From Mobula hypostoma (lineage: Eukaryota), in contig NC_086097.1 in NCBI RefSeq assembly GCF_963921235.1, forward strand, positions 21,702,001 through 21,766,000: 64,000 nt of DNA, written 5' to 3'. This document shows positions 10,870 to 59,960 of the stretch, piece by piece. The notes beneath the pieces are model-generated. The model had not been told where the DNA came from. It saw nothing but the letters and a program-made list of their open reading frames with translations, and made no database searches. The translations under genes and the position numbers were made by a program. Numbering within the stretch: the first letter of the stretch is position 1; each line of letters starts with the position of its first letter.

Positions 10870-11115
10870 CACTACATCATAGGCTGGCAACATACCATAA
10901 ATAAATAATAAAAAAAAAGATTATTTCCATCTGCAGATGTACTGTAAACATTTATTTTTAATGGTTATAACAACGGTTTGCATTTATAGAGCCATAGAAT
11001 ACTAAGGCACAGAAATAGGCCATTTGGCTCATCTAGTCCAAGCTGAAATATTATTCAGCCGAGTTCCATCAACCTGCACCCGGACTATAGTCCTCCATAC
11101 CTTCCCATCCATGTA

Positions 11116-12469
11116 ACATAGAAACATAGAAAACCTACAGCACAATACAGGCCTTTCAGCCCACAAAGCTTTGCCGAACATGTCCTTACTTTAGAAATTA
11201 CCTAGGGTTACCCATAGCCCTCTATTTTTCTAAGCTCCATGTACCTATCCAGGAGTCTCTTAAAAGACCCTATCGTTTCCACCTCCACCGCCGCCGGCAG
11301 CCCATTCCATGAACTCACCATTCTGTGTAAAAAAACTTACCCCTGACTTCTCCTCTGTACCTACTTACAAGCACCTTAAAACTATGCCCTCTCTTGCTAG
11401 CCATTTCAGCCCTGGGGAAAAGCCTCTGACTATCCACACGATCAATGCCTCTCATTATCTTGTACACCTCTATCAGGTCACCTCTCATCCTCCGTCACTC
11501 CAAGGAGAAAAGGCTGAGTTCACTCAACCTATTCTCATAAGGCATGCTCCCCAATCCAGGCAACATCCTTGTTAATCACCTCTACACCCTTTCTATGGTT
11601 CCCATGTCCTTCCTATAGTGAGGCGACCAGAATTGAGCACAGTACTCCAAGTGGGGTCTGACCAGGGTCCTACATAGCTGCAACATTACCTCTTGGCTCT
11701 TAAACTCAGTCCCATGATTGATGAAGGGCAATGCACCATATGCCTTCTTAATCACAGAGTCAACCTGTGTAGAAGCTTTGAGTGTCCTATGGACTTGGAC
11801 CCCAAGATCCCTCTGACCTTCCACACGGCCAAGAGTCTTACCATTAATGCTATATTCTGCCATCATAGTTGACCTATCAAAATGAACTACTTCACACTTA
11901 TCTGGGTTGAACTCCATTTGCCACTTCTCAGCACAGTTTTCCATCCTATCAATGTCCCGCTGTAACCTCTGACAGCCCCCCACACTGACAACAACATCCC
12001 CAACCTTTGTGTCATCAGCAAATTTACTAACCCATCCCTCCACTTCTTCATCCTGGTCATTTATAAAAATCACAAAGAGTAGGGGTTCCAGAAGAGATCC
12101 CTGTGGCACACCACCGGTCACAAACCTCCATGCAGAATATGACCCGTCTACAACTACTCTTTGCCTTCTGTGGGCAGCTGGTTCTGGATCCACAAAGCAA
12201 TGTCTCCTTGGATCCCATGCCTCCTTACTTTCACAATAAGCCTTGCATGGGGTACCTTATCAAATGCCTTGCGGAAATCCATATACACTACATCTACGTC
12301 TCTACCTTCATCAATGTGTTTAGTCACATCCTCAAAAAATTCAGTCAGGCTTGTCAGGTACGCCCTGCCTTTGACAAAGCCATACGGACTATTCCTAATC
12401 ATATTATGCCTCTCCAGATGTTCATAAATCCTGCCTCTCAGGATCTTCTCCATCAACTTAACCAAACTG
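11116..12469 (-). mobile_element. Younger 5'-truncated CR1 LINE inserted in an older CR1 3' fragment (~10990-12690)
   Basis: YMDFRKAFDKVPH, GVPQGS, KFADDTK, RPHLEYC; tandem AACATAG tail; 9-bp duplication ATCCATGTA at 11107-11115 and 12470-12478. Confidence 0.9.
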
Positions 12470-20909: not shown

Positions 20910-22424
20910 GCAAGGTAGCGTACCGTTTAGTGTAATGCTACGACAGTGCCGATGACCCAGGTTCAGTTGCACTACTGTCTGTAAGGAGTTTGTGGGCTTC
21001 CTTCCATGTTCCAAAGATGCATAAGTGGCAAGGCTAATTGGTTACATGGGTGTAATTGGGCAGTGCGTGCTTGTGAGCCAGAAGTGCCTGTTACTATGGT
21101 GTATGTCCAAATGTCTCAACCTCGAGACCACATTGATCTCAGTTAATACCTGCCTCTACACTCTATTTGTGCTCCGCTTTAGTTTTTTATTTGCCTGTGA
21201 AGTCTGAGATGATCTTGCAACTTTCAAGTTGTTGTATAGATGGCTCTTATTCACCTCCCAGCGTTCACTTCATACCCCCTATCCAACACCCACCCACCAC
21301 TCCCTCACCTGGTCTCACCTATTGCCTGCCACCTCCTATTCATTCTCCTCCCTCGCCTTCTTATTCTGGCCTCTGCCTCCTTCTGTGTCAGTCCCGAAAC
21401 AGACTCTCCATAAATGCTGCCCGACCTGCTGTATTGCTACGGCATTTTGTGTGCGAGTGTATGGCCCTAGGTGTGTGTTATTGCTGTTATTCACAGGGCT
21501 GGACACAAAGCAAATATTAGGATCTTGAAACTGATGCAAAAATAGATTAAATTTTATTTTAATTATCAGCTGCTTGATCATCCAGTTTGAAGAAAGCGTT
21601 CTTTACCCTCGCAGCCCCTCAGTTCATTAGGAAGTCACTATACGACAGACCTATTTTTGTGCGAGTGGAAGTAAAAATTGGTGCAGTATTTCTACAGTAT
21701 TTATACCAGAGAGGAAGGAGATTGTCTGCTATCAGAACAATGCTTCAGATTTAATGATGCTTTGGTAGTTATAGCCTAATTAGATTTTTACAGGCTTTAA
21801 TGCCACATGCAAATAAAAAGGGAGATCATTTCAAGGGTATGACATCCAATTACTGGAGCAGAGAGTTTCCTAGCATCAGACGAATGACAAACACCACGCG
21901 CCTGTTTCACAGACAGATTGTATCTCTGGATCTTGCCGCAAAATGCATTTCTGCTGACTCATTCTGTACCCTTTTTGCAAAATCATTGTCTTTAAATGTC
22001 ACACCTCTTTTGAATAAGGGTTGCAAAAACAGGACCAGTCATATTTGAACCTGCCTAATCTCTACTTCTCTCAACCCCGTTCAAAATGAAGAACTGAAAC
22101 AGTCCATTCAGCCCAACTGGACTGTGCTAGTTCATCTTCTCCAGTACTGTCTCCTCTCATATGATCTCTATCTCAGCTCTCCTGTGTCCTGTTCACCTTT
22201 CCAAACACTCCCCCCCCCCCGCCCCATCACCACGTTCATCTGGTCCTTTGACCTATATCTTCTCTCAGTGACTACATTTACTGTGCAGTTAAAGTTTGGT
22301 TCAGGTGTCTGACAACCAGTTTCTCTTGATGCTGTTGATGCATAGCACTGTGGTTAAGCTTAGGACTAGTACTTTGAGGTCTGATGTGCTGTTGTGATTT
22401 TGGGAGTTCAAATCAAATCAAAGA

Positions 22425-29889: not shown

Positions 29890-32320
29890 TCCCAGGTGAG
29901 GCTTTTCTTTCCAGGATATCCTTTTTAAAAGAGTGGAGTTTCCCTTCCTCCAACATTGATGCTGCTCTCACCCGCATCACAGCCAATTCTCATACATCTG
30001 CTTTCACCCCACCTTCCTGCCACCTTAACAGTAATAGAATTCCTCTTGTCCTTACCAATCACCCCATGAGTCTCTGCATCTAACATGTCATTCCCTGCAG
30101 CTTCCACCATCTCCAAAGGAATCCTACCACTAAACATGCCTTTACCTCCCCCTCTCTGATTTCCACAGGGACCACTCCCTCCATGATTCCCTCGTCCATT
30201 TGACATTCCCCACTGATCTCCCTCCCAGCATTTCTCCCTGCAAGCAACAAAAGAGCTGCACCTGCCCATTCACCTCTCCCTCACTTCCATTCAGGGCCCC
30301 AAGCTGTCTTTCCAGGTGAGGCACACTTCACCTGTGAATCTGTGGGTGTTGTCTATTGTGTCAGGTGCTCCCGATGTAGCCTCCCCTGCATTGGTGAGAC
30401 CTGTCGTCAAGCACCTCTGCTCCATAGAACATGGAACATAAAATACAGAAATCTACCGCACATTACAGGCCCTTTGGCCCACAATGTTGTGCCCACCATG
30501 TAACCTACTCTAGAAACTGCCTACAGTTTCCTTAGCACATAGCCCTCTATTTTTCTAAGCTCCATGTACCTATCTAAGAGTCTCTTAAAAGACCCTATTG
30601 TATTCATCTATTGCTACTGTCGCTGGCAGTGCATTCCACGCACCCATCACTCTCTGTGTAAAAAAATTTACCCCTGACATTCCCTCTGTGCCTACTTCCA
30701 AGCACCTTAGAACTGTGCTCTCTCGTGTTAGCCATTTCAGCCCTGGGAAAAAGCCTCTGATGATTCACACAATCAATGTGTCTCATTATCTTATATACCT
30801 CTATCAGGTCACCTCTCATCCGTTGCTCCAAGGAGAAAAGGCCAAGTTCACTCAACCTATTCTCGTAAGGCATGCTCCCCAATCCTTGTAAATCTCCTCT
30901 GCACCCTTTCTATAATTTCCACATCCTTCCTGTAGTGAGGTGACCAGAACTGAGCACAGTACTCCAAGTGGGGTCTGACCAGGGTCCTATATAACTGCAA
31001 CATTACCTCTCGGCTCTTGAACTCAATCCCACTGTTGATGAAGGCCAGTGCACCATATACCTTCTTAACCACCCAGTCAACCTGCGCAGCAGCTTTGAGT
31101 GTCCTATGGACTCGCACCCCAAGATCCCTCTGATCCTTCACACTGCCAAGAGTGTTACCATTAATACTATATTCTGCCAACATATTTGACCTACCAAAAT
31201 GAACCACCTCACACTTATCTGGGTTGAACACCATCTGCCACTTCTCAGCATAGTTTTGCATCCTATCAATGTCCCGCTGTAACCTCTGACAGCCCTCCAC
31301 ACTATCCACAACACCTCCAACCTTTGTGTCATCAGCAAATTTACTAACCCATCCCTCCACTTCCTCATGCAGGTCATTTATCAAAATCACAAAGAGAAAG
31401 GGTCCCAGAACAGATCCCTGAGGCACACCACTGGTCACAAACCTCCATGCAGAATATGACCCGTCTACAACCACTCTTTGCCTTCTGTGGGCAAGCCAAT
31501 TCTGTATCCACAAAGCAATGTCTCCTTGGATCCCATGTCTCCTTACTTTCTCAATAAGCCTTTCATGGGGTACCTTATCAAATGCCTTGCTAAAATCCAT
31601 ATACGCTACATCTACTGCTCTACCTTCATCAGTGTGTTTAGTCACATCCTCAAAAAATGTAATTAGGCTCGTAAAGAACGACCGTCACACTTGATTGGTC
31701 CTATTCTCTCACGTCTTCTCCTCTTGTTCTTCACATACTTGTGGAACACCTTGGGGTTTTCCTTAATCCTGCTTGCCAAGGCCTTCTCATAGCCCCTTTT
31801 GGTTCTCCTAATTTCATTATTAAGCTCCTTCCTGCTAGCCTTATAATTTTCTAGATCTCTATCATTATCTAGTTTCTTTCGAATCTTTTGTAAGCTTTTC
31901 TTATATACCACCTGGGTAGCCTCCAACCTGATGGCATGAAAATTGATTTCTCTTTCCAGTAAAAGAAATTTCTCCCCCTTCTTCTATTCCCTACTCAGGC
32001 CTCTTACCACTTCTAACCTGCCTATCACCCTCCTCCTTCCCTCTCTCCTACACTCTTCTATCAGATTCCTTCCTCTCCAGTCCTTTATCTTTCTTATCCA
32101 CCTGGCTTCACCTGTCACCTTCCAGCTGTCCTCCTTACCCTCCCCCCACCTTTTTCCTCTGGTGTCTTTGCCCTTCTTTTCCAGTCCTGAGGAAGGGTCT
32201 GGGCCAGAAATGTCAACTGTTTGTTCATTTCTGTGGATGCCGCCTGACCTGCTGAGTTCCTCCAGCATTTTGTGTGTGTTGCTCTGGATTTCCAGCATCT
32301 GCAGAGTTTCTCATGTTTAT
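29890..32320 (+). mobile_element. Penelope-like element (29890-30425 and 31909-32320) split by a CR1 insertion
   Basis: Both parts match 47535-48736; GIY-YIG region resumes at CTGGGTAGCCTCCAACCTGATGGCATG. Confidence 0.85.
30426..31900 (-). mobile_element. 5'-truncated CR1 LINE with 262-aa RT ORF remnant (30857-31645)
   Basis: YMDFSKAFDKVPH, GVPQGSVLGP, KFADDTK, RPHLEYCAQFWSP; same subfamily as 11116-12469 and 53320-54115. Confidence 0.92.
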
Positions 32321-36352: not shown

Positions 36353-39307
36353 TTTGGAAGGTGTAATGAAATCGGAGCACCTAGAAGAAACCCACGTGGT
36401 TATGGGGAGAACGTACAAACTCCTTACAGATGGCTGGCGCTGTCATAGCACTACACAAACCGCCATGCTGTTGTTGCACCCATTTTGTCCTTAATGTGTA
36501 CCCCTCTCCTTACCCTCAATTGTTCCCTTATGTCATTCTTTACTTCCATGGAGTATTGTAATTCCAGCTTGTTCTTTTTTAGTGGAATATATCTTCCTTC
36601 CACTCTGCCGAACATCATTTTAAACACTTCTCATCATTGTACTACTTCATTGTTCATTAATACTCCTGTCCATTGTACCTTCCCACGTTCTGTACTCAGC
36701 CAACTCAGAGTATATCTTGTGCCTTTGCTTAATCTGTGCTTCATCCAGCTTTTGTTCAAATAGAGGAGCACCAATTGAGGGAGGATGCTAGATGGTAGGC
36801 AAGGGGTGTTGATGTCCTATAGTCAATGTTGAGTACTACCTGCACTACTCCCTCCTATCCATGCAGCCCCCAATGTAGGACTTACCCAGCAATATTTTGG
36901 AGGCATCTGGAATATTGCAAGTTTTAATTATAATGGGTTTAACAGTGTACAGCTGTTTATTGAAAAATCGGTGGAATAACATCCAAGTTTAGACACCAGT
37001 CCCCAAGTGTTTGTGAGGAAAGAGTTTGCGAAGTCAACTGGACTGTGAGTACCTTTGCCTTGTCTGAATGTCATGATCTATCTGGCTTTATCTCTGATTA
37101 ATTGCTAAATGTTGGCCGGGACACTGAAGAAAACTCCTCCACTGGGTGTTCCTCAAGATAATTCCATAGGATTTTTTATATTTGCATAGGAGACAAGATG
37201 GAGGTTTGGTCTGAGGTCTAACCTTTAAGACATCCTTGGAGTGCTGGCCTAGGACTGAAAGTCAGGCAAGATCTGAACAATATGAAACAGTATTTTTGGT
37301 CAAAGACCCTCTCTCAGACAAGGGATCCTTGACCCAAAGTATTGACTCTGTCTCTCTTACTATAGATGCTGCCCGACCTGCTGGGTGTTCACAACATCTG
37401 TAACTTCTTAATTCTCAGAAAAACGTTTTTCTGGTAGTATGAGAGAGAAAGGGGCTGGGGGACAGGCCAAAAGATTCCACATGGACCACTGCTCGAAGTA
37501 AATTGGGCTCCAGTTCATGGAATATTTACAATTAAGCCCTAACCATGGTGAGATTCTCGAGGTGAATGTTTATCCCAAATGGGTCCCAAATGTCCTTTAT
37601 CTGACTGCTGGTGATAGTCCGTACTAAACACAGATTGGCTGCTATATTTCAAGTTAAAGTTCAAGTATATTATCTTCATAGGCGTACTTCACAGGACGTA
37701 GATGTCATAAAAATTAGCTTGTTGTAGCAGCACAGTACATTACAGACTTGACAGACACAAATTAGCGTCACGAGAGAGCCTGCGGATGCTGGAAGTCCAA
37801 GGCAACACACACAAAATGCTGGAGGAACTCAGCAGGCCAGGCAGCGTTTATGGAAAAGAGTAAACAGTTGAGGTTTCGGGCCAAGACCCTTCATCAGGAC
37901 TCAATTAACATCAACTTAAATTAACATAAATTATACACAACTTTGCATGCGCAAAAATAAACATAACAATAGTCGAAGGCTGAGAGAGAGTGCATTGCTA
38001 GTGTTTTTCCAACGTTACAAGAGAGACCTGAAATCAAGAGATGCTTCATTGGCTCTAATGCACTTTAGGACATCCTGAGGTATGAGGGGCATTGTATAGA
38101 CCCATCTTCCTTCTGCTAACCCGCCCTCGGGGGAGCACTGTTATGCCAATTCCCTGTCATCCGCAGGTTGCTGCTCCACTGTCGTCAACTTTCCTATCAG
38201 ACCTGACAGCAATCAGTCAGTCCATCAAGGCATGAGGCACCCTCTGGATGCTTTATTTTCACAGACATTCTGGGCACATATTTGATCTGTGGGAATAATT
38301 GTACAATCTGTTCTGGCAGTTAGAGATGCCCTTGATCATCTCTCTGTATTCCACAGGCATGAACCTGTCACAGTCTTGCCACTTTATCTTCTTTCATTGT
38401 AACCAGCTCCTACACCGAGCGGCTGATCATATTGGTGAAATAAAAGAAGGCAAGACGTGATTTATTAGCAGGCTACAAAACTCCCACTGTGACCTCTGTC
38501 AGGAACTGAAAATGATCAACAGTAATATGAGGAAGTAGATATCACAATTCATTTCGGGGTCAATAATCCTAGATTCAACTGGTATCAAAGTAATATTTAT
38601 CCCTTCATTTTTCTCATATTTCTCACTGTCACAAAATGATACAAGTGAGAATATATTCCACCCTCGTTTTATAAGAGAGGTTTAAATCCTCCACTTTAAT
38701 TTACATTGACTAGACCGAACATTTCTTGCCATGTTGTCACACTGTCTCTGCCATTGTTTTGAGTGCTCTGAATTATTGTCCATGCACCTTCCAGTTGAAG
38801 CCTTGAAGATCTTATAGTGGTATTAACACCACAAGACCTCCGGTATACGCTCCCTAAAAAAAAGGTATAAATATGAAAAGGATCAGCTAATTGTAAAACA
38901 GTAAAAAATAAGTAAAAAAAAGTTAGCTCAATTAAAATACACACAGAACAGAACAAAAGCCGGAAAGTATATATTAAAAAAAACCACAATAAACCTCAAA
39001 CTCATGAATAGACACAGCAACAAAAAAAATAGGATTATTAACATAAAATGATTATAAAAAGCAAAACAGAATAAAATTTAAAAAAAACTACAAAATTTAA
39101 GGCCGCACAGGAAATACGTAAGATGACAAAAGGGAAGTAACCACCCAGAATCCCCTGGGAAAAGAAAGAAATGACGCAGTTAAAAAGAAAGTTTAGCAGC
39201 CATATTAAGAAATCGAAAGTAAACTTTTCTGCCCAAATAGGGCACAGAAAAGTTAAAACCAACCAATTCACAGCCTCCGATCAACGGAGAAAATTAAAAA
39301 AAGGCAA

Positions 39308-40207
39308 TTAAGATGTTGAAGATGAAAGTTGATCCAGATAACTCTGGGCATCCGATGGAGAATCAAAAAAACGAAGAGCTCCATCTAACATGCGAATCCT
39401 TAGACGTGCAGGGTACAGCAGCGCTGGTCTTAAATCCATCTTATAGAATTCCGACATCACGGATCTGTAACGGACCCGTTGGTCCCAGATTGGTTTACTG
39501 AAATCTTCCACGAATCGGAACTTAAGATCCGAAAAATCAATGAAACCTTTAGATCGAGCGAATCGAAACAGTCTCTCCTTATCTTGAAAATAATGAAAAC
39601 GTAAGATAACATGCCTAGGTCTATCTGACCTAGACGAGTATGATGGGATTCTGTGAACACGATCCAGTAGCGGTGGTTGGTCAGGAAATACAGTAGGGAA
39701 TGCATCTTTTAAAAGTTGGGAGAAATATTTCATAGGGTTGTTAGCTTCCACGGCTTCCCTGACGCCAATCATTCGTAAATTCTGCCGTCGCATTCTAGAT
39801 TCCAAGTCAGAGTTTTTAAAAGTCAAAAAGTCAAGTTTCTTCTTCATTACATTAATTGTTTCTTCGACTTTCCCCATCTTAAGCTCACTTTGTTGCGCGG
39901 ATTTTTGAAGACCAGATATAGCCGACTGATGTTCCGCAATACATGTTTGCATCTTATCAATTAAATCGGCAATTTTCTGGAACTTAGTTGAGATTTCCAT
40001 ATGAATCAGGTCTTTAACAAAGCCCATAATTTCTGTACGAATCATCTCCCTAACAGAGGTTGAAATTTCCCTCTGAATTAACTCCGATATAGCTTCCAAA
40101 GTCACCGGTGATTCAGTCGGAGGGAGATCCGTAGCTTTCGGTTTAACCGGAGGTTTACCATCCTTGCCGTCTTTCCCGTTCTTAGACATAGCAGATCTAA
40201 GTTCCAT
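39308..40207 (-). CDS. L1 ORF1p (coiled-coil + RRM + CTD, Transposase_22-type), 299 aa, uninterrupted
   Basis: Heptad-rich N-terminal half followed by DLESRMRRQNLRMIGVRE, LDRVHRI, PRHVILRFHYFQDKE, FVEDFS, LLYPARLRI. Confidence 0.93.
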   Translation of the reverse strand: MELRSAMSKNGKDGKDGKPPVKPKATDLPPTESPVTLEAISELIQREISTSVREMIRTEIMGFVKDLIHMEISTKFQKIADLIDKMQTCIAEHQSAISGLQKSAQQSELKMGKVEETINVMKKKLDFLTFKNSDLESRMRRQNLRMIGVREAVEANNPMKYFSQLLKDAFPTVFPDQPPLLDRVHRIPSYSSRSDRPRHVILRFHYFQDKERLFRFARSKGFIDFSDLKFRFVEDFSKPIWDQRVRYRSVMSEFYKMDLRPALLYPARLRIRMLDGALRFFDSPSDAQSYLDQLSSSTS

Positions 40208-40360
40208 CCAATTGTCAGAGAATTCAGTTTAATTCAAAGTATTGTAAAAATTGATGCCTTAATAGTTAATTAAAGTATAGCTGACCATAGAGAGAAAAAA
40301 CTCAGAGGTAATGGAGCGAGTCAAGAACGCGACTTCACTCCATGAGCGCTACCGGAAGTC
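40208..40360 (-). promoter_or_regulatory. L1 5'UTR / putative internal Pol II promoter
   Basis: Begins GACTTCCGGT (fish-L1-type 5' end; ETS-like CCGGAAGT on the + strand); CpG-containing; directly upstream of ORF1. Confidence 0.65.
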
Positions 40361-40605
40361 ATGGGGGTAGTTTTAGCGCTTGCTTCTTTCTGGCGGGTCT
40401 GCTTTAGATTTCGCCTTGGGGTCCTGGGGTGGGGGGCGGTGGGAGGGGCTTCACGTTTTAGTTTGTTTCTCTTTGGGCTATATACATTATTGAAGTATTG
40501 GTTACGTCCTTTTCCCCGGTATCTTTTGTATGTTCTGTTTCCTCTCCGGGTCTGTGGGTCGCGCCTATTGTCAATCCTCCTTGTTATGGGTTGACTTTAG
40601 GATTT

Positions 40606-43600
40606 ATGGAGTCTATTATTAATTTTGTCTCCTGGAATACTAATGGTCTTAATCATCCTATTAAAAGGAAAAAAGTTTTTAAAGTGTTCCGGAGACTTAA
40701 AGCACAAATTTTATTTTTACAAGAGACCCATGTACGGAGGGGGGACAGACTACGTTTTTTCAAATTTTGGAAGGGACAACAATTTCATTCGAACTCCAAT
40801 GCTAAGATTCGAGGCGTCTCTATCTTTATAGACTCCTCAGTTACTTTTATACAACAGGATATTATCTCTGATCCGAATGGTAGATTTTTATTGGTTAGTG
40901 GTTTATTATTTAATAAAAAAGTAGTTTTGGTTAATGTTTATGCTCCTAATATGGATTGTCCGGAATTTTATAAATCATTGTTTGATCAGTTTCCGAATTT
41001 GAACGAGTTTTCATTGATTTGGGGCGGAGATCTTAATACCTGTTTATCTCCAGCTTTGGACCGTTCGGCTCCTTTACGGACTTTACCTAATAAATCTGCA
41101 AATTTGATTAATTTTTTCCTTTCTGATTCTGGGTCGACGGACATTTGGCGTTTTCTGCATCCTCAGGAAAAAGATTTTTCCTTCTTTTCACATGTTCATC
41201 ATTCCTATTCAAGAATTGATTATTTTTTCATTGATTCTCGTCTCATTTCTTCAGTGATTAAATGTGATTATGATTCTATAACCATTTCGGATCATGCTCC
41301 ACTTAAGCTTTCTATTAAAATTATGGCCAATATACCAAACAATAGACAATGGCGTTTTAATTCGCTGTTGCTTCAGGACTCGGACTTTGTTAATTTTATG
41401 AATGAACAGATTGAGCTTTTTTTTACAATTAACCATACAGAAGATATTTCGGTTAACACTCTTTGGGACACTTTTAAAGCCTATATTCGGGGTCAGATTA
41501 TTTCGTATTCCGTTGCTTTGAGGAAGAAACAGAAGCAGGAGGAGATGGTAATTGTGGACAAGATTAAAGAAATTGATAAGAAATATGTTATGGCTCCTTC
41601 TGAGGAGCTATACAAACAAAGAACTGAACTTCAAATGGAACACAGTTTACTACTCTCGTCCTCGATTGTAAACCAATTAAAGAAAACAAGAAGTGATTTT
41701 TATGTTCACAGTGATAAAATTGGCAAGCTGCTGGCTAATCAATTGAAATCTAATTATGTTAAATCTCAAATCAATCAGATTTATAACCAAAATGATCGAT
41801 TGATATTGGATCATGTGGGGATTAATCAAACCTTTTGTGATTTTTATTCTTCTTTATACCAATCAGAGTCTCCTCGAGATTCTAAATATATGAATGATTT
41901 TTTAGATAAGTTAGACTTCCCTCTGATTTCACAGGATATGTCTTCTTTATTAGATACTTCCATTACAATGGATGAGATTAAGAATGTTATTTTTTCTATG
42001 AATCTGGGGAAAGCTCCTGGCCCTGATGGGTTTACCGTTGAATTTTATAAATGTTTTGCTTCTTTATTGATTCCTTGGCTCTATAAGGTTTTTGAGGCTT
42101 CTTTGAAACTTGGTAAACTTCCGGAATCTTTTAATAGAGCATCAATTTCTTTAATACTAAAGAAGGATAAAGACCCTGCTCAATGTGCATCTTATAGACC
42201 AATATCTTTATTAAATGTTGATTCTAAAGTTTTTTCTAAGTTATTAGCAAATAGACTAGAAAAAGTACTTCCTTCTATTATTTCGGAAGACCAAACGGGT
42301 TTTATTAAAGGTCGTTACTCTTTTTATAATATTCGTACATTGTTAAATATCGTTTATACTCCCTCACAAAATGTTCCTGAGTGTGTTATTTCTTTAGATG
42401 CCGAGAAAGCTTTTGATAGAGTAGAATGGCCTTATTTATTTAAGGTGCTTGAAATGTTTAATTTTAGCTTGAAATTTATATCCTGGATTAAACTGTTATA
42501 TTATTCCCCTGTAGCCTCGGTTCGTACTAACTCCTTAAACTCACCTTTTTTTCCTCTCTTTCGTGGTACTCGACAAGGCTGTCCTCTTAGTCCCCTATTA
42601 TTTGATATTGCATTAGAACCTCTTGCAATTGCTATTCGAGAATCTTTAAATATTACTGGGATAACTCGGGGATTAAAGTCCCATAAATTATCACTCTATG
42701 CTGATGATTTACTTTTATATATTTCTAATCCTGAGAGATCCATTCCTGCTGTTTTAGAGTTATTAGCACAATTTGGTCTTTTCTCAGGTTATAAATTAAA
42801 TCTTAGTAAGAGTGAACTTTTTCCGATTAATAAACATCTTCCCTTATATTATAAATTTCCATTTAAATTGATTAATAATTACTTTTCATATCTTGGGATT
42901 AAAATTACTTGTAAACATAAAGATTTATTTAAGACTAACTTTTTACCATTAATAGACCATATTACTCAACTTTCATCTAAATGGTTTCCCTTATATTTAA
43001 CTTTGATTGGTCGTATTAATGCAGTTAAGATGTTTTTTTTGCCAAAATTTTTATATGTGTTTCAGGCATTACCAATTTTCGTTCCTAAATCTTTTTTTGA
43101 TAAAGTTGACTCTAAAATTTCTTCATTTATTTGGCAGAACAAGAATCCGAGACTGGGTAAAATACATTTACAGAAAGCTAAGAGAGATGGAGGTTTAGCA
43201 TTACCTAACTTTAGATTTTATTATTGGGCTATTAATATTCGACATATGAAATTTTGGTTACTTGATCGGGACATACTATTTATTCCTAAATGGGTAGCAT
43301 TGGAATTACAATCTGTTCAGGGTTATACACTTGGTTCTATTTTAGGTTCCTCTCTTCCTTTTGATTCGAAACGTCTTAAGCAGGTCTCTAACCCGATAGT
43401 TAAATATGCTTTGCGCATTTGGTTTCAATTCAGAAAATTTTTTGATCTTAATCAATTCGGGTTAGCGATTCCTATTTTAGGTAACATATTTTTTCCTCCC
43501 TCTTTTACGGATCGCGCTTTTCAAACTTGGAAGACTAAGGGTATTTTACGGTTTTTGGATTTATTTTTAGATGGTTCCCTTATGTCTTTTGAACAATTAT

Positions 43601-44382
43601 CTAACAAATATAACTTATCAAGAATACATTTTTTTAGATATTTACAAGTTAGAAATTTCCTAAGTACTATACTTACTTCCTTTCCAATGCTTCCTCCTAT
43701 ATATATTTTAGATTCGATAATTAACCTTAATCCATGTCAGAAAGGTGCATCGGCTATGATTTATAATATTATTATGAAACTTAGGAAAGCTCCATTTGAT
43801 AAGATTAGGGTAGATTGGGAACAGGAATTGGGGCTTACCATTTCTGTGGATGATTGGGGGCAGATTTTACAATTAGTTAATACTTCCTCTATTTGTGCTA
43901 AACATTCCCTAATTCAATTTAAAGTGGTTCATAGAGCACATATGTCCAAAGATAAGTTAGCGCGTTTTTACTCGCATATTAATCCTTTCTGTGATAGATG
44001 TTCGGGGCAGATAGCCTCTTTAACTCATATGTTTTGGTCTTGCCCTACTTTGGAAACTTTTTGGAGAGATATTTTCAATATTATTTCTAAGGTATTAAAT
44101 ATAGATATCTCTCCTCACCCTATTACTGCTATCTTTGGACTACCTAAAATTTCTAGTAATCTTTCCCCTTCAGCCCGTAGAATGATTGCATTTCTTACTT
44201 TAATGGCGAAAAGATGTATTTTACAACATTGGAAAGAGCTTAATGCTCCAACTACCTTTTTTTGGTTTTCTCAGACGATTTTATGTTTGAATCTGGAGAA
44301 AATTAGAAGTAACCTTTATGATTCTTCATTTAAATTTGAACAGATTTGGGGACCTTTTATTCGATATTTTCATTTAATGTAA
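40606..44382 (+). CDS. L1 ORF2p (APE endonuclease + reverse transcriptase + CCHC), 1258 aa, uninterrupted
   Basis: EN: SWNTNGL, LQETH, GGDLN, SRIDYF, SDHAP; RT: KAPGPDG, YRPISLLN, LDAEKAFD, GTRQGCPLSP, YADD, YLGI; C-terminal CDRC-x8-HMFWSC; first ATG in frame is at 40606. Confidence 0.97.
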   Translation: MESIINFVSWNTNGLNHPIKRKKVFKVFRRLKAQILFLQETHVRRGDRLRFFKFWKGQQFHSNSNAKIRGVSIFIDSSVTFIQQDIISDPNGRFLLVSGLLFNKKVVLVNVYAPNMDCPEFYKSLFDQFPNLNEFSLIWGGDLNTCLSPALDRSAPLRTLPNKSANLINFFLSDSGSTDIWRFLHPQEKDFSFFSHVHHSYSRIDYFFIDSRLISSVIKCDYDSITISDHAPLKLSIKIMANIPNNRQWRFNSLLLQDSDFVNFMNEQIELFFTINHTEDISVNTLWDTFKAYIRGQIISYSVALRKKQKQEEMVIVDKIKEIDKKYVMAPSEELYKQRTELQMEHSLLLSSSIVNQLKKTRSDFYVHSDKIGKLLANQLKSNYVKSQINQIYNQNDRLILDHVGINQTFCDFYSSLYQSESPRDSKYMNDFLDKLDFPLISQDMSSLLDTSITMDEIKNVIFSMNLGKAPGPDGFTVEFYKCFASLLIPWLYKVFEASLKLGKLPESFNRASISLILKKDKDPAQCASYRPISLLNVDSKVFSKLLANRLEKVLPSIISEDQTGFIKGRYSFYNIRTLLNIVYTPSQNVPECVISLDAEKAFDRVEWPYLFKVLEMFNFSLKFISWIKLLYYSPVASVRTNSLNSPFFPLFRGTRQGCPLSPLLFDIALEPLAIAIRESLNITGITRGLKSHKLSLYADDLLLYISNPERSIPAVLELLAQFGLFSGYKLNLSKSELFPINKHLPLYYKFPFKLINNYFSYLGIKITCKHKDLFKTNFLPLIDHITQLSSKWFPLYLTLIGRINAVKMFFLPKFLYVFQALPIFVPKSFFDKVDSKISSFIWQNKNPRLGKIHLQKAKRDGGLALPNFRFYYWAINIRHMKFWLLDRDILFIPKWVALELQSVQGYTLGSILGSSLPFDSKRLKQVSNPIVKYALRIWFQFRKFFDLNQFGLAIPILGNIFFPPSFTDRAFQTWKTKGILRFLDLFLDGSLMSFEQLSNKYNLSRIHFFRYLQVRNFLSTILTSFPMLPPIYILDSIINLNPCQKGASAMIYNIIMKLRKAPFDKIRVDWEQELGLTISVDDWGQILQLVNTSSICAKHSLIQFKVVHRAHMSKDKLARFYSHINPFCDRCSGQIASLTHMFWSCPTLETFWRDIFNIISKVLNIDISPHPITAIFGLPKISSNLSPSARRMIAFLTLMAKRCILQHWKELNAPTTFFWFSQTILCLNLEKIRSNLYDSSFKFEQIWGPFIRYFHLM

Positions 44383-44754
44383 TATTTACCCTTCTTGTTT
44401 TCTCTTCACTGTTTTAATGGAGGTCGGGATTGAGGACGTGATTTTAAGTTTAACTCTGTTCGGTTTCAAGTTAGCCCATTGCTTTGCTTTGCTTTTAGTT
44501 AGTTGCACGGTGGGTTTTTTTTTGGGGTTTTTTTTTTCTTTTTTTCCATTGATATATATAAAATCTAGTATACTATTATGTTATCTTGGTTTCTTATGCT
44601 TAAATTACATTGTTTGTAGTATTTTCTTTTTGGTATTGTTATCTTTTGGAATTTTATTATACTTTAACATTGTATTAATGTTTATATGGCTTACCTTTTT
44701 TGTATACTTACTCAATAAAAAGATTTAAAAAGAAAGAAAGAACACCACAAGACC

Positions 44755-44975
44755 ATAGACCATAAGGTATAGGAGCTGAATTAAGCCCGTCAGCCATGCA
44801 GCCCATTAACTCTGCTCCGTCATTCCAACATGGCTGATTTATTATCCCTCTCAACCCCATTCTCCTGCCTTCTCCCCGTAACCTTTGACAACCTGACTAA
44901 TCTAGAACCTATGAACATCTGCTTTAAATATGCTGGATGTCTTGGCCTCCACAGCCATCTGTGGCAATGAATTCA
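44755..44975 (-). mobile_element. CR1 3' end whose tail abuts the L1 TSD
   Basis: GACCATA tail repeats; matches other CR1 3' ends. Confidence 0.75.
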
Positions 44976-45799
44976 GAATCATGTTCCAGTGTCACCGGCA
45001 TATGTTGTGAAATTTGTTAACTTAGTGGCAGCAGTACAATGCAATACATGATAATTTAGAAAAAATTATTAAGTAAATCAATCACAGTAAGTATATATAT
45101 GTATATTAAATAGTTAAATTCAAAATAGTGCAAAAACAGAAATAATATATAAAATAAAATGAGGTAGTGTTCATGGGTTCAATGTCTATTTAGGAATCGG
45201 ATGGCAGAGAGGAAGAAGCTGTTCCTGAATCGCTGAGTGTGTATCTCCTTCCTTAGATTCGCCTCCAACTAAAGAAATTCTTGTTTTGTCAGCTATCTCT
45301 GAAGCTGTTTGACATCGCTGTGAGAGTTTCACAGTTCAGGACTGTAAAACTCCAACAACCCAGTGGCTGAATATTTTCTAGAGTATATTTCTGGTTGGCA
45401 ACACAATGTTGATGAAAGCAGAGTGTTGCATCTTAACATCCAAATGTCATGACTTGTTGGTTTCTTCAATATAAGCTGACTACCCCGGTGTAGAATGGGA
45501 ACTATGCCAGCTTCGTCATAATATAGTCTAGCTGTTGGCATAGCACTTTACAGCGCTAACTAGTGGAAGATCAGCATTCCAATTCCTGTCACTGTATGTA
45601 AAGAGTTTGTACATTTTCCCCATGACTGCGTGGGTTTTTCCAGGTGCTGCTCTGGTTTCCTCTCACGTTCCAAAGATGTACTGCTTGGTAAGGGTTAGTA
45701 AGTTGTGGGCATGCTATGTTAGTGCCGGAAGCACTTGTGGACATCTCCCAGCACATTCCCAGACTATGTTTAGTCTTTGACACAAAAGACGCATCTCAC

Positions 45800-46945: not shown

Positions 46946-47335
46946 CATTTTTGCCCCAACTGTAATGGTGTGAACTGCACATCAGCCTCGGTGCTTTTAG
47001 CTGTAATGCTCTCAGATGTAGCAACTGTACTGATATCAGCTGTAATAATCTCAGCTACACAGGATCGACTGTTCCCTCAGCTCTAATGGATCGACTTGTC
47101 TCAGCTGTAGTAGTTTCAGGTGCTCTGTCTGCTTCTGTAATGTTAGCTATTGCGTTAACTATAAAAGCGTGAACTGCAATGCCTGCTGGAGGATTGTTAT
47201 GAAGATTAACAAGATAGCTTCATTGAAACATGCAGTGAAATATGTCAAATTAAAGTGAGAATTGCGCTGGGGGTAGCCTGCAATATCTACATGGTTCTGA
47301 TGCCAACATAACATGCCCACAACATGCCCATAACA

Positions 47336-48736
47336 ACCTGGTCCATTTCTGACACCTCCCTCCCCTTTCTAGATCTTTCTGTCTCTATCTCTGGAGACAG
47401 CTTATCTACTGATGTCTACTGTAAGCCTACTGACTCTCACAGCTATCTGGACTATTCCTCTTCTCACCCTGTCTCTTGCAAAAATGCCATCCCCTTCTCG
47501 CAATTCCTCCGTCTCCGCCGCATCTGCTCTCAGGATGAGACTTTTCATTCTGGGACGAGGGAGATGTCCTCCTTTTTTAAAGAAAGGGGCTTCCCTTCCT
47601 CCACCATCAACTCTGCTCTCAAACGCATCTCCCCCATTTCACGCACATCTGCTCTCGCTCCATCCTCCTGCTACCCCACCAGGAATAGGGTTCCCCTTGT
47701 CCTCACCTACCACCCCGCCAGCCTCTGGGTCCAACATATAATCCTCTGTAACTTCCTCCACCTCCAACGGGATCCCACCACTAAGCATATCTTTCCCTCC
47801 CCGCCTCTCTCTGCTTTCTGCAGGGATCACTCCCTATGCGACTCCCTTGTCCATTCATCCCTCCCCATCCCTCCCCACTGATCTCCCTCCTGGCACTTAG
47901 CCTTGTAAGCGGAACAAGTGCTACACATGCCCTTACACTTCCTCCCTCACCACCACCATTCAGGGTCCCAGACAGTCCTTCCAGGTGAAGGGACACTTCA
48001 CCTGTGAGTCAGCAGGGGTGATATACTGAGTCCGGTGCTCCCGATGTGGCCTTCTATATATTGGCGAGACCCGACGCAGACTGGGAGATCGTTTCGCTGA
48101 ACACCTGCGCTCTGTCCGCCAGAGAAAGCAGGATCTCCCAGTGGTCACACATTTTAATTCTACGTCCCATTCCCATTCTGATATGTCTATCCACGGCCTC
48201 CTCTACTGTAAAGATGAAGCCACACTCAGGTTGGAGGAACAACACCTTATATTCCGTCTGGGTAGCCTCCAACCTGATGGCATGAACATTGACTTCTCAA
48301 ACTTCCACTAATGCCCCGCCTCCCCCTCGTACCCCATCCATTATTTATTTATATACACACATTCTTTTTCTCTCTCTCCTTTTTCTTCTGTCCCTCTCAC
48401 TATACCCCTTGCCCATCCTCTGGGTTTTTCCCCCCTTCCTCTTTTTCTCCCTAGGCCTCCTGTCCCATGATCCTCTCATATCCCTTTTGCCAATCACCTG
48501 TCCAGCTCTTGGCTCCATCCCTCCCCCTCCTGTCTTCTCCTATCATTTTGGATCTCCCCCTCCCCGTCCCACTTTCAAATCTCTTACTAGCTCTTCCTTC
48601 AGTTAGTCCTGACGAAGGATCTCGGCCCGAAACACCGAATGTACCACTTGCTAGAGATACTGCCTGGCCTGCTGCGTTCACCAGCAACTTTTATGTGTGT
48701 TGCTTTAAGTTCGAGCATCTGCAGATTTCCTTGTGT
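47336..48736 (+). mobile_element. 5'-truncated Penelope-like element (RT C-terminus + GIY-YIG endonuclease + terminus), few disabling mutations
   Basis: LPFLDLSV..TDVYCKPTDSHSYLDYSSSHP..QFLRLRRICS; GVIY*VRCSRCGLLYIGETRRRLGDRFAEH; 11-bp duplication ATGCCCACAAC at 47313-47323 and 48737-48747. Confidence 0.92.
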
Positions 48737-58113: not shown

Positions 58114-59960
58114 TCATCTGTGGACACGGAGGTGGCTCTGCAGGCCCAGTCTGGAAGCGCAGAGTCTAGCACAATGGGGGCACTGGAAGTCCGTTGTTGT
58201 AATAATTGTGGCTGCTGTTCTGTGATGCCGCTCAGTGACAAGTCTGTTCAGGAGAATGCAGGCAAAAATCTTGCCTGCAATGGACAGCAGTGAGATAGCC
58301 CTGTAGTGTCCGCAGTCTGATTTGCTTCCCTTGTTCTCGTAGAGAGCCATGATGAGAGCGTTGCTGAAGTCGTCAGTCATCTCCTCTGTGATCCGGATGT
58401 CTTGGAACGCCTGTAAGGCGTTTGGGCCTAATGCTTTGTAGATCTCGGCAGGAATGCCATCCTGCCCTGTTGCTTTATTTGAGTTCATCTGCGAGATCGC
58501 TCTCTTGATCTCATCAGTAGAGGGCAGCAGGTCTAGGTCATCCAGGACTGGCTGCTGAGGAATCTGCTGTAAGACATCAGGATCAACTGTGGACGGCCTA
58601 TTGAGTAGGTTGAAAAAGTGTTCAGCCCAGCGGATTTTCAGTCCTTCCTGGTCTTTGGTCAGGCTCGACCCGTCAGATGACAGCAAGGGGGAGCATCCTG
58701 ATTTAGAAAGACAACAAGCTGACTTTATGGCGCTGAAGAACTCTCTGGTGGTATGCATGTCTGCATAGCGTTCCACCTGCTCAGCCTTTCTCTGCCACCA
58801 CTCGTCCTGCATTTCTCGCAGTTCTGCCCGTACTTTGGACTGCAGGTGTTTAAACTTGTCTGTCTTTGAGACAGATGACCGGTCATTCTGCCAGTCTGCA
58901 TAGGCCTTGTTCTTGGCCTGAAGGGCTGCTGAAATGGTCTCGTGGTTTTCATCAAACCAGTCTTGATGCACTCGGGTTTTCTGTCCGAGTACAGTTGTTG
59001 CAGTCTGCGCGATGACATCTTTGAACTGCGTCCACTTTTCAGAACAAGTTCCCACAAGCGGTGAATTGCCGGAGAGTTTTTCATTAAGTATATCTCGAAA
59101 ACGTTGGACTTGACCTGGGTCTTGCAGCCTGCCAATGTTGAATGACACTCTGACAGTCTTTGGCTGCTTACGATGCAAAGGGGCTACATGCAGGTTGAGG
59201 ACCGACCGAACCAGCCTGTGATCTGTCCAACACTCAGCACCTCGCGTGGCCTGGGTGATGGTGATGTCTTGAAGGTCACGCTGGCGTACTATGACATAGT
59301 CGAGTAGGTGCCAGTGTTTCGATCTGGGACGCATCCGGGTTGTTTTGTATTTGTTTGCAAGTCTGAACATCGTGTTAGTGATGCACAGGTTGTGCTCGGC
59401 ACACTTGCTCAGAAATAGCAGGCCGTTACTGTTTAGTTTTCCCACCCCATGTCTCCCAAGGACTCCATCCCAGTTGTCGCTGTCTGTCCCCACCCTAGCG
59501 TTGAAGTCACCCAAGTTGACGAGTTTGTCGCTGGCAGGGGTTGTCTGAATAGTCTGGTCCAGGTCCTTGTAGAACCTTTCCTTGTCTTCGTATGGACTCA
59601 TGAGAGTTGGTGCATAGACACTGACTATGGTAATATACCGGGACTTGCTGAGAGGAAAGCGGAACTTAGGGATATTCTTCAGCTAAGCAGTATTGATTGC
59701 AAAACCTACTCCGTGGATCCTGTTGTCAGTCTGTGATTTCCCTTTCCAAAAGAACGTATATCCACTCGCTGCTTCCTGTAATGAACCCTCGTCTACAAGC
59801 CTAGTCTCACTGAGTGCAGCGATATCAATGCGATAATGGCGAAGTTCAGTCGCTATGAGTGCTGTTCGTCTTTCAGGCCTTGCCACCTTGTCTCTAGCCA
59901 GCAAGATGCGGACGTTTCAGGCTCCAAAGATGAGTTTTCTTTGATTTGTTTTTCTTGATG
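58114..59960 (-). pseudogene. RTE ORF remnant (stop/frameshift in EN; 495-aa open segment 58114-59601)
   Basis: ORF track shows 59683-59904 and 58114-59601; no QG..LSP or YADD motifs. Confidence 0.85.

What the first reader, a model, noticed from the sequence alone, without database searches (positions are those of the whole stretch)
38825..44754. Intact L1 with ORF1 and ORF2 arranged head-to-head
Seen: a single TSD pair encloses an uninterrupted ORF1 on the minus strand and an uninterrupted ORF2 on the plus strand, with start codons ~400 bp apart. The GACTTCCGG 5' terminus lies internally at 40360, and the breakpoint falls in the inter-ORF spacer, so neither ORF is damaged. Established: twin priming yields 5'-inverted L1s, but these are usually truncated and are best documented in mammals. 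Inference: this is either a near-lossless twin-priming product in a fish L1 or a family with a divergent layout. The internal promoter would now make an ORF1-only RNA, and ORF2 would need antisense or bidirectional activity from the junction.
Basis: partly seen in the sequence, partly recalled or inferred. Interest (0 to 1): 0.8.

Follow-up and report, generated by a model that had tools for sequence, protein, structure and literature searches.

The report
L1 flipped at own inverted repeat
One young copy of an ordinary LINE-1 jumping gene, in what is likely a cartilaginous fish, has its front quarter turned backwards with nothing lost, and the turn sits exactly on a short inverted repeat that normal copies carry, which likely steered a known copying accident (twin priming) to this spot.

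Summary
Observation confirmed. One 14-bp TSD encloses an intact ORF1 (minus strand) and an intact ORF2 (plus strand). The divergent-family reading fails: sister-copy contigs in 4 of 4 runs join the spacer in normal ORF1-ORF2 order, and 53 of 53 related loci with a detectable ORF1 are tandem. Single-copy contigs in two DNA runs support the left junction; no listed contig bridges the inner junction (inconclusive). New point: the flip loses nothing and is bounded by an 11-nt inverted repeat that normal copies carry between their 5' end and spacer. That repeat is predicted to form a 17-bp RNA helix just before a 77-codon spacer ORF. Best reading (0.6): twin priming at insertion, steered by this repeat. 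cDNA fold-back or later recombination would give the same sequence. The copy is likely a dead end, because ORF2 has lost its promoter. The scan noted these things before in this genome: another loss-free flipped L1, several truncated flipped copies, the leader-spacer repeat and the spacer ORF. Human 5'-inverted L1s are the known model; they usually break near the 3' end and lose sequence.

The parts
38825..38838 (+). Left target-site duplication (14 bp); its last bases GAC-C overlap the left arm of the inverted repeat
   Evidence: left junction in single-copy contigs X1 record 1 and X3 record 9, 0 differences
38835..38845 (-). Left arm of the inverted repeat (spacer arm after the flip; 10 of 11 identical to the right arm; the odd base, 38838, belongs to the TSD)
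38846..39307 (-). Upstream part of the inter-ORF spacer, inverted
   Evidence: loose ends before 40350 in sister contigs equal the minus strand of 38846-38875
39308..40207 (-). ORF1, uninterrupted (299 aa, or 293 aa from ATG 40189), L1 RRM/Transposase_22
40208..40360 (-). 5' UTR, complete to the family's 5' terminus at 40360
   Evidence: heterogeneous loose ends behind 40360
40350..40360 (+). Right arm of the inverted repeat: the element's first 11 nt reverse-complemented, and identical to the spacer arm of normal copies; inner inversion junction
   Evidence: X7 record 23 matches 40350-40390 with 0 other letters; joint 38846/40350
40361..40594 (+). Short spacer ORF, 77 codons, starting at the first base after the junction and ending 11 nt before ORF2
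   Evidence: a similar ORF in 30 of 38 related loci against 3.2 expected
40606..44382 (+). ORF2, uninterrupted, 1258 aa: APE endonuclease, RT (YADD at 698-701), C-terminal CCHC
44383..44740 (+). T-rich 3' UTR, AATAAA at 44714, short A-rich tail
44741..44754 (+). Right target-site duplication, followed by a high-copy repeat

Best explanation
This is one copy of a normal, tandem-ORF, high-copy fish-type L1 family whose first 1.5 kb is inverted without loss at an 11-nt inverted repeat that normal copies carry, most likely through twin priming during insertion. Inferred steps: (1) ORF2p nicked the target at TT|AAC and copied 4.38 kb from the tail up to the spacer arm, which is also the foot of a predicted 17-bp helix between the RNA's 5' end and the spacer. 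(2) The 14-nt top-strand overhang, ending GAC-C, primed a second cDNA on that same arm (3 matched bases and a terminal mismatch) and copied 1.52 kb to the very 5' end. (3) Because of the repeat, the two cDNA ends were complementary over 3 to 11 nt; they annealed and were filled in, giving a blunt, loss-free join. Predicted consequence: the internal promoter now points left and could make only an ORF1 RNA ending in flank poly(A) signals. The spacer ORF and ORF2 have no upstream promoter, so the copy is likely unable to move itself; its frames are likely open because it is young.
For: Shown: one TSD pair encloses both segments. The left flank joins spacer sequence, not the 5' UTR, in single-copy contigs of X1 (38300-38867, depth 9.7) and X3 (38300-38863, depth 14.4), with 0 differences. 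Sister contigs join 38846 (minus) to 40350 (plus) in 4 of 4 runs. Loose ends before 40350 match 38846-38875 minus in X2, X4 and X7, and a related variant sits before 40349 in X9 of organism B. Nothing is lost or duplicated at the join. Of 79 related loci, 53 have a detectable ORF1 and all 53 are tandem. Summed contig depth is about 1e5-8e5 over the element against 10-14 on the left flank. The longest contigs of X5 and X7 lie mostly 0-2 differences per 220-650 nt from this copy; one of the 16 listed, X5 record 21, has 27. Predicted: nt 1-17 pair with nt 1509-1526 at probability 0.88-1.0. The duplex is -31.1 kcal/mol; the next best of 1157 windows is -17.9; it ranks first of 50 sampled 20-mers; z -7.2 against 20 shuffles. 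The last 10 TSD bases match the priming site at 7 of 10, as good as only 21 of 5896 positions (the length was chosen after looking). Known: 5'-inverted human L1s have TSDs of 10-20 bp and short homology at both junctions (PMC4245944, PMC2912911, passages).
Against: The sequence alone cannot separate twin priming from fold-back or later recombination, because the repeat is perfect in the family. No listed contig spans the inner junction. The expected unique contig is at most about 49 nt, shorter than the longest one-sided pieces, and 775 pieces were not shown. The left-junction contigs reach only 29 and 25 letters past the TSD, below the tool's 31-letter rule, and X1-X4 may be the assembled sample. 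The primer's last base is mismatched. Over 6, 8 and 14 nt the primer match is unremarkable (287, 203 and 348 of about 5900 positions as good; duplex energy in the best 2.5%). In humans, 89% (292/330) of inversion junctions lie in the 3' 2 kb and only 7% (18/273) are blunt (10.1101/2021.12.20.472354, passages), so this is an unusual product for that pathway. The helix is a prediction; no compensatory change could be tested.
Confidence: 0.6

Rival explanations
1. Post-insertion inversion: a normal full-length copy inserted first, and the 1.5-kb block between the two 11-nt arms later flipped by microhomology-mediated repair or replication template switching.
For: A reciprocal flip between perfect arms gives exactly this loss-free product. 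The GAC overlap with the TSD could be the 5' junction homology of the original insertion.
Against: The copy is young. Eleven bases is short: in a human reporter, recombination between L1 cDNAs was not detected with 6 or 0 bp of homology and needed 25 bp or more (PMC13526784, passages; a different setting). Homology with the TSD is rare for full-length human L1 and common for inverted ones. Unchecked scan notes report several other front-flipped L1s in this genome.
Confidence: 0.15
2. cDNA fold-back: RT made one full-length first strand whose 3' end annealed to its own internal copy of the repeat and primed second-strand synthesis towards the tail; the ORF1 loop was then cut and joined to the top-strand overhang.
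For: It explains at once why the 5' end is complete and why the join falls on the repeat. It needs only 11-17 nt of self-complementarity, which the family has.
Against: It needs an extra cut, and it leaves the GAC match with the TSD end to chance or to end-joining. No such route appeared in the passages read.
Confidence: 0.14
3. Assembly artefact: the locus is a normal tandem L1 and the block was flipped by the assembler.
For: The family is high-copy, and no listed contig spans the inner junction.
Against: Contigs from two runs carry the flank-to-spacer junction with 0 differences, 21 and 17 nt beyond the repeat arm. The TSD is exact at both ends.
Confidence: 0.05
4. A family with a divergent ORF1/ORF2 layout and a bidirectional promoter.
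For: Both ORFs are intact. The junction carries CCGGAAGT, which I recall as an ETS/GABP-type motif (not tested). An unchecked note reports a second loss-free flipped copy (e1-8158129).
Against: Sister contigs are tandem in 4 of 4 runs. In X5 and X7 all listed depth at 38902-38923 comes from the contig with the tandem joint. 0 of 53 related loci are head-to-head. A TSD-adjacent inverted end cannot be regenerated from one RNA of this layout.
Confidence: 0.02

Closest known systems
5'-inverted (twin-primed) human L1 insertions (model of Ostertag and Kazazian 2001, not read; seen through passages of PMC2912911, PMC4245944, PMC2837659, 10.1101/2021.12.20.472354 and 10.1101/2024.08.27.596794)
   Same: One TSD of 10-20 bp around an inverted 5' block and a sense 3' block with tail; short homology between the TSD end and the RNA at the inversion point; homology at the inner junction.
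   Different: Here the host is likely a cartilaginous fish. The junction is 4.4 kb from the 3' end (human: 89% within the last 2 kb; tumour median at 5.15 kb of 6). The 5' end is complete (human: typically 5'-deleted). The join is blunt (human: 7%). The junction homology is an 11-nt repeat built into the family, not a chance 2-3 nt.
Fish-type L1 with short 5' UTR and long intergenic region (Boissinot and Sookdeo 2016, PMC5381506, passages)
   Same: Sizes fit the zebrafish ranges: 5' UTR 153-171 nt (165 +/- 42), ORF1 882-900 (877 +/- 70), spacer 718 (311-730), ORF2 3777 (3773 +/- 71); T-rich spacer and 3' UTR; ORF2 42-51% identical to fish-type L1 ORF2s, 65% for the best hit.
   Different: The word 'inverted' does not occur in that paper's main text. 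It folded spacers alone, found no shared structure, and proposed an IRES. The passages seen mention neither leader-spacer pairing nor a spacer ORF.
Zebrafish LINEs in cell assays (ZfL2-1, Nimb-2_DR; PMC4245944, passages)
   Same: Non-mammalian LINE integration with TSDs; one Nimb-2_DR insert was 5'-inverted.
   Different: These are not L1-clade elements. Inversions were seen almost only with human L1 in human cells, so a natural full-length flip in a cartilaginous fish widens the host range.

Membership tests
L1 clade, fish type | ORF1 with L1 RRM (Transposase_22) | tested here: met
   E 8.4e-10; 35-40% identity to fish L1 ORF1 proteins
L1 clade, fish type | ORF2 with APE endonuclease, RT and C-terminal zinc knuckle | tested here: met
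   N11, E40, Y112, D142, N144, D205, D229, H230, YADD 698-701 and C1129/C1132/H1141/C1146 invariant or nearly so in 17 sequences (catalytic roles recalled)
L1 clade, fish type | Poly(A) signal, A-rich tail and TSD | tested here: met
   AATAAA at 44714, short A-rich tail, 14-bp TSD
L1 clade, fish type | ORF1 then ORF2 in tandem in the family | tested here: met
   met in sister copies; this copy is the rearranged exception
L1 clade, fish type | Endonuclease target like TT|AAAA | tested here: inconclusive
   the site reads TT|AACAC: core matches, the rest does not; this family's preference is unknown
5'-inverted (twin-primed) L1 insertion | One TSD pair around an inverted 5' block and a sense 3' block with tail | tested here: met
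5'-inverted (twin-primed) L1 insertion | The two blocks are adjacent parts of one RNA | tested here: met
   joint 38846/40350, no loss or gain
5'-inverted (twin-primed) L1 insertion | TSD 3' end complementary to the RNA at the inversion point | tested here: inconclusive
   3 matches then a terminal mismatch; 7 of the last 10 match (21 of 5896 sites as good), weak at other lengths
5'-inverted (twin-primed) L1 insertion | Complementarity between the two cDNA ends | tested here: met
   11-nt repeat
5'-inverted (twin-primed) L1 insertion | Inversion formed during insertion, not later | not testable with these tools
   needs alleles or orthologues; no genome is held
L1 family with divergent layout | Sister copies share the head-to-head order | tested here: not met
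   tandem joint in 4 of 4 runs; 0 of 53 related loci head-to-head

The most novel reading that the evidence does not exclude
The helix between the 5' end and the spacer really forms in the retrotransposition particle and makes a programmed inversion hotspot: RT halts at its foot, and independent insertions flip the whole ORF1 block at this same base. Such copies would be genomic footprints of a long-range RNA structure that also places the cap beside a conserved spacer ORF leading into ORF2, a possible answer to how fish L1s translate ORF2 across a long spacer.
Probability: 0.22. Interest if true: 0.68.

Novelty: new variant of a known kind. Interest (0 to 1): 0.42.

Why it matters
As a single locus this is a clean, complete 5'-inverted L1 outside mammals: a known accident in a new host group, and likely a dead end. 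Its value is the breakpoint. It falls on the only strong self-complementary partner of the RNA's 5' end; 0.018 matches of 10/11 or better are expected by chance in the element. If flips recur there, inversion sites are set by the element's own RNA structure and not only by chance microhomology, and counting junctions in the assembly becomes a direct test of whether the leader-spacer helix exists in vivo. That helix and the conserved spacer ORF (30 of 38 related loci) bear on the open question of ORF2 translation in L1s with long spacers.

Tried and rejected
Whole-genome search: no genome is held, so copies and junctions could not be counted. No second copy of the element lies in the window.

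Inner junction: a narrow read-laying (40315-40402; X2, X4, X7, X9) listed no bridging contig. 32 pieces were shown and 775 not, so this is neither for nor against.

Expression: no holder is on record as RNA. X5 and X7 are guessed RNA. They have no cover at 38300-38767, and all their depth at 39581 carries the family letter, not this copy's. Contigs drop rare variants and these are other samples, so this is no evidence on expression.

Empty site: no joint skipping the element was listed (15 of 428 joints shown). The left-flank contigs do not break at the TSD, a weak hint of no empty allele in sample S1.

Leader-spacer pairing as a general rule in related loci, using 45 of the 53 tandem loci (8 mammal-like dropped). 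Longest exact inverted match: mean 9.2 against 8.3 nt in controls. Five near-duplicates and 2 loci with short leaders were then dropped, leaving 38. A home-made helix score failed its own control (window controls z about -5 to -6; loci 3 of 38 against 3 of 38) and was discarded. With duplexfold, 8 of 38 spacers reached z below -2.5 against 3 of 38 controls, with only 8 shuffles each. The window's 3' UTR control also gave z -2.9. This is suggestive, not general.

Selection on this copy: 16 coding sites among 23 hand-picked majority differences (40 of 241 rows shown) were 9 synonymous and 7 non-synonymous. This mixes subfamily and private changes and dates nothing precisely.

The fold lacked the partner arm and was uninformative.

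Literature: eight searches ran. The listings and passages seen showed no 5'-inverted L1 in a cartilaginous fish and no inversion at a built-in repeat. PMC5389967 had the term only in its reference list; 10.1101/2024.12.14.628481 added nothing specific. Subscription papers (Ostertag and Kazazian 2001; Kojima and Okada 2009; Ichiyanagi and Okada 2006, 2008) were not read. No supplements were opened, and bioRxiv supplements may list full-length inverted human copies.
Full report
Observation. A 14-bp direct repeat at 38825-38838 and 44741-44754 occurs nowhere else in 64 kb. Between the copies lie 5902 bp: an inverted block of 1522 bp and a sense block of 4380 bp. The inverted block holds an open ORF1 (39308-40207, minus strand, Transposase_22). 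The sense block holds an open 1258-aa ORF2 with endonuclease, RT and zinc knuckle, then AATAAA at 44714 and a short A-rich tail. ORF2 relatives are fish-type L1s. A CR1-type ORF elsewhere in the window has its highest-identity named hits in sharks and rays (76-77%), so the host is likely a cartilaginous fish.

Family or single copy. No genome is held, so I laid public contigs on the stretch. Summed contig depth over the element is about 1e5-8e5 against 10-14 on the left flank. This is not a copy number, but the family is plainly large. In 4 of 4 runs a contig joins 38846 on the minus strand to 40350 on the plus strand; in X5 it has 148 letters on the shorter side. That joint is the normal ORF1-spacer-ORF2 order. 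The narrow laying agrees: loose ends before 40350 equal the minus strand of 38846-38875 in X2, X4 and X7, and a related variant appears in X9 of a second organism. Loose ends behind 40360 are many and unlike each other (15, 13 and 11 contigs), which marks 40360 as the family's 5' end. Among 79 related loci from metagenome contigs, 53 have a detectable ORF1 and all 53 are tandem; L041 also has minus-strand hits that were not followed. The divergent-family reading is therefore rejected.

Is the flip real? Single-copy contigs in X1 and X3 run from the unique left flank through the TSD into spacer sequence with no differences, to 38867 and 38863. They pass the repeat arm by 21 and 17 nt, so the flank joins the spacer and not the 5' UTR. 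They fall short of the tool's 31-letter bridging rule, and may come from the assembled animal. No listed contig spans the inner junction, but the expected one is too short to be listed. With an exact TSD at both ends, I put an artefact at 0.05.

The breakpoint. Sister copies pass from 38846 to 40350 with nothing lost or repeated, and X7 record 23 matches 40350-40390 with no other letter. So the family's spacer contains TACCGGAAGTC, the exact reverse complement of its own first 11 nt. In this copy the left arm differs at one base, 38838, which is the last base of the TSD. By composition, 0.018 matches of 10 of 11 or better are expected in the element. Folding the first 1780 nt of the un-inverted RNA pairs nt 1-17 with nt 1509-1526 at probability 0.88-1.0. 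The duplex of -31.1 kcal/mol is far below the next best site (-17.9) and ranks first of 50 sampled 20-mers. A 77-codon ORF starts at the first base after the arm and stops 11 nt before ORF2. I took this lead from note e1-9282441 and tested it: 30 of 38 related loci have their longest spacer ORF (40 codons or more) ending within 40 nt of the ORF2 start, against 3.2 expected from shuffles. Leader-spacer pairing in those loci is only suggestive (8 of 38 against 3 of 38 controls). I noted the repeat before seeing the scan's notes on it.

Mechanism. Twin priming fits best (0.6). The tail-primed cDNA would reach the spacer arm, which is the foot of the predicted helix. The TSD overhang, ending GAC-C, would prime there and copy to the 5' end. 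The two cDNA ends would then be complementary through the repeat and join without loss. All these steps are inferred. In favour: a 14-bp TSD and short homology at the TSD end are typical of inverted human L1s, and 7 of the last 10 TSD bases match this site (21 of 5896 positions as good, post hoc). Against: the terminal base mismatches, and the match is ordinary at other lengths. Human junctions are also mostly 3'-proximal (292/330) and rarely blunt (18/273). Because the repeat is perfect, two rivals give the same sequence: a later flip between the arms (0.15) and fold-back of a full-length cDNA (0.14).

Consequence. The promoter is assumed internal, as in other L1s (recalled; not tested for this family). 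It now faces left and would give an ORF1 RNA that could end at flank signals at 38700, 38466 or 38257. The spacer ORF and ORF2 have no upstream L1 promoter. The junction has CCGGAAGT, which I recall as ETS-like, but nothing here shows rightward transcription. Fifteen of the 16 longest listed contigs of X5 and X7 differ from this copy by 0-2 letters per 220-650 nt, so youth is enough to explain the open frames.

Comparison and novelty. It works like, and is filed as, a 5'-inverted L1 insertion. No defining feature failed; formation at insertion could not be tested. It differs in host, in completeness and in using a built-in repeat. Eight paper searches showed no such case, but key subscription papers were not read. 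For PMC4245944, PMC2912911, PMC5381506, PMC2837659, PMC13526784, PMC5389967 and three preprints I saw passages only. The scan has unchecked notes of another loss-free flipped L1 and several truncated ones in this genome; their breakpoints were not visible to me. Verdict: real, a single event, a new variant of a known kind; interest 0.42, rising to about 0.68 if flips recur at the repeat.

Noticed in passing
window 40361-40594 (+); loci L001-L079: A 77-codon hydrophobic ORF fills the spacer just before ORF2; 30 of 38 related fish-type L1 loci have such an ORF ending within 40 nt of the ORF2 start (3.2 expected).
   Followed up: partly
window 40349-40355, loose ends in X4, X7, X9: Other subfamilies have a variant spacer arm that would pair with this copy's 5' end over 12 nt plus 6 more after a bulge; their own 5' ends were not read, so covariation is untested.
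   Followed up: partly
window 40390, X7 record 23: A 1558-nt contig of depth 635 follows the tandem spacer to 40390 and then leaves into unrelated sequence: a chimeric contig or a transcript joining L1 spacer to host sequence.
   Followed up: no
window 39998-40075: Contigs in X1 and X3 (depth 294 and 242) skip 76 nt inside ORF1 with 4 other letters between: a multi-copy internally deleted subfamily.
   Followed up: no
window 44755-45300: The insertion sits at the edge of a very high-copy repeat; similar heads occur at 22422 and 51872. The TSD resembles that repeat's short tandem end.
   Followed up: partly
window 30857-31600 (-), 47324-47881 (+), 58114-59601 (-): Other retroelement ORFs: a CR1-type RT fragment, an ORF without Pfam hit (Penelope-like from recall), and an endonuclease-RT fragment; 11110-12365 and 30430-31683 are 86% alike.
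   Followed up: partly
L041: Besides its tandem ORF1, the locus has 8 ORF1 hits on the minus strand: a second or rearranged element.
   Followed up: no
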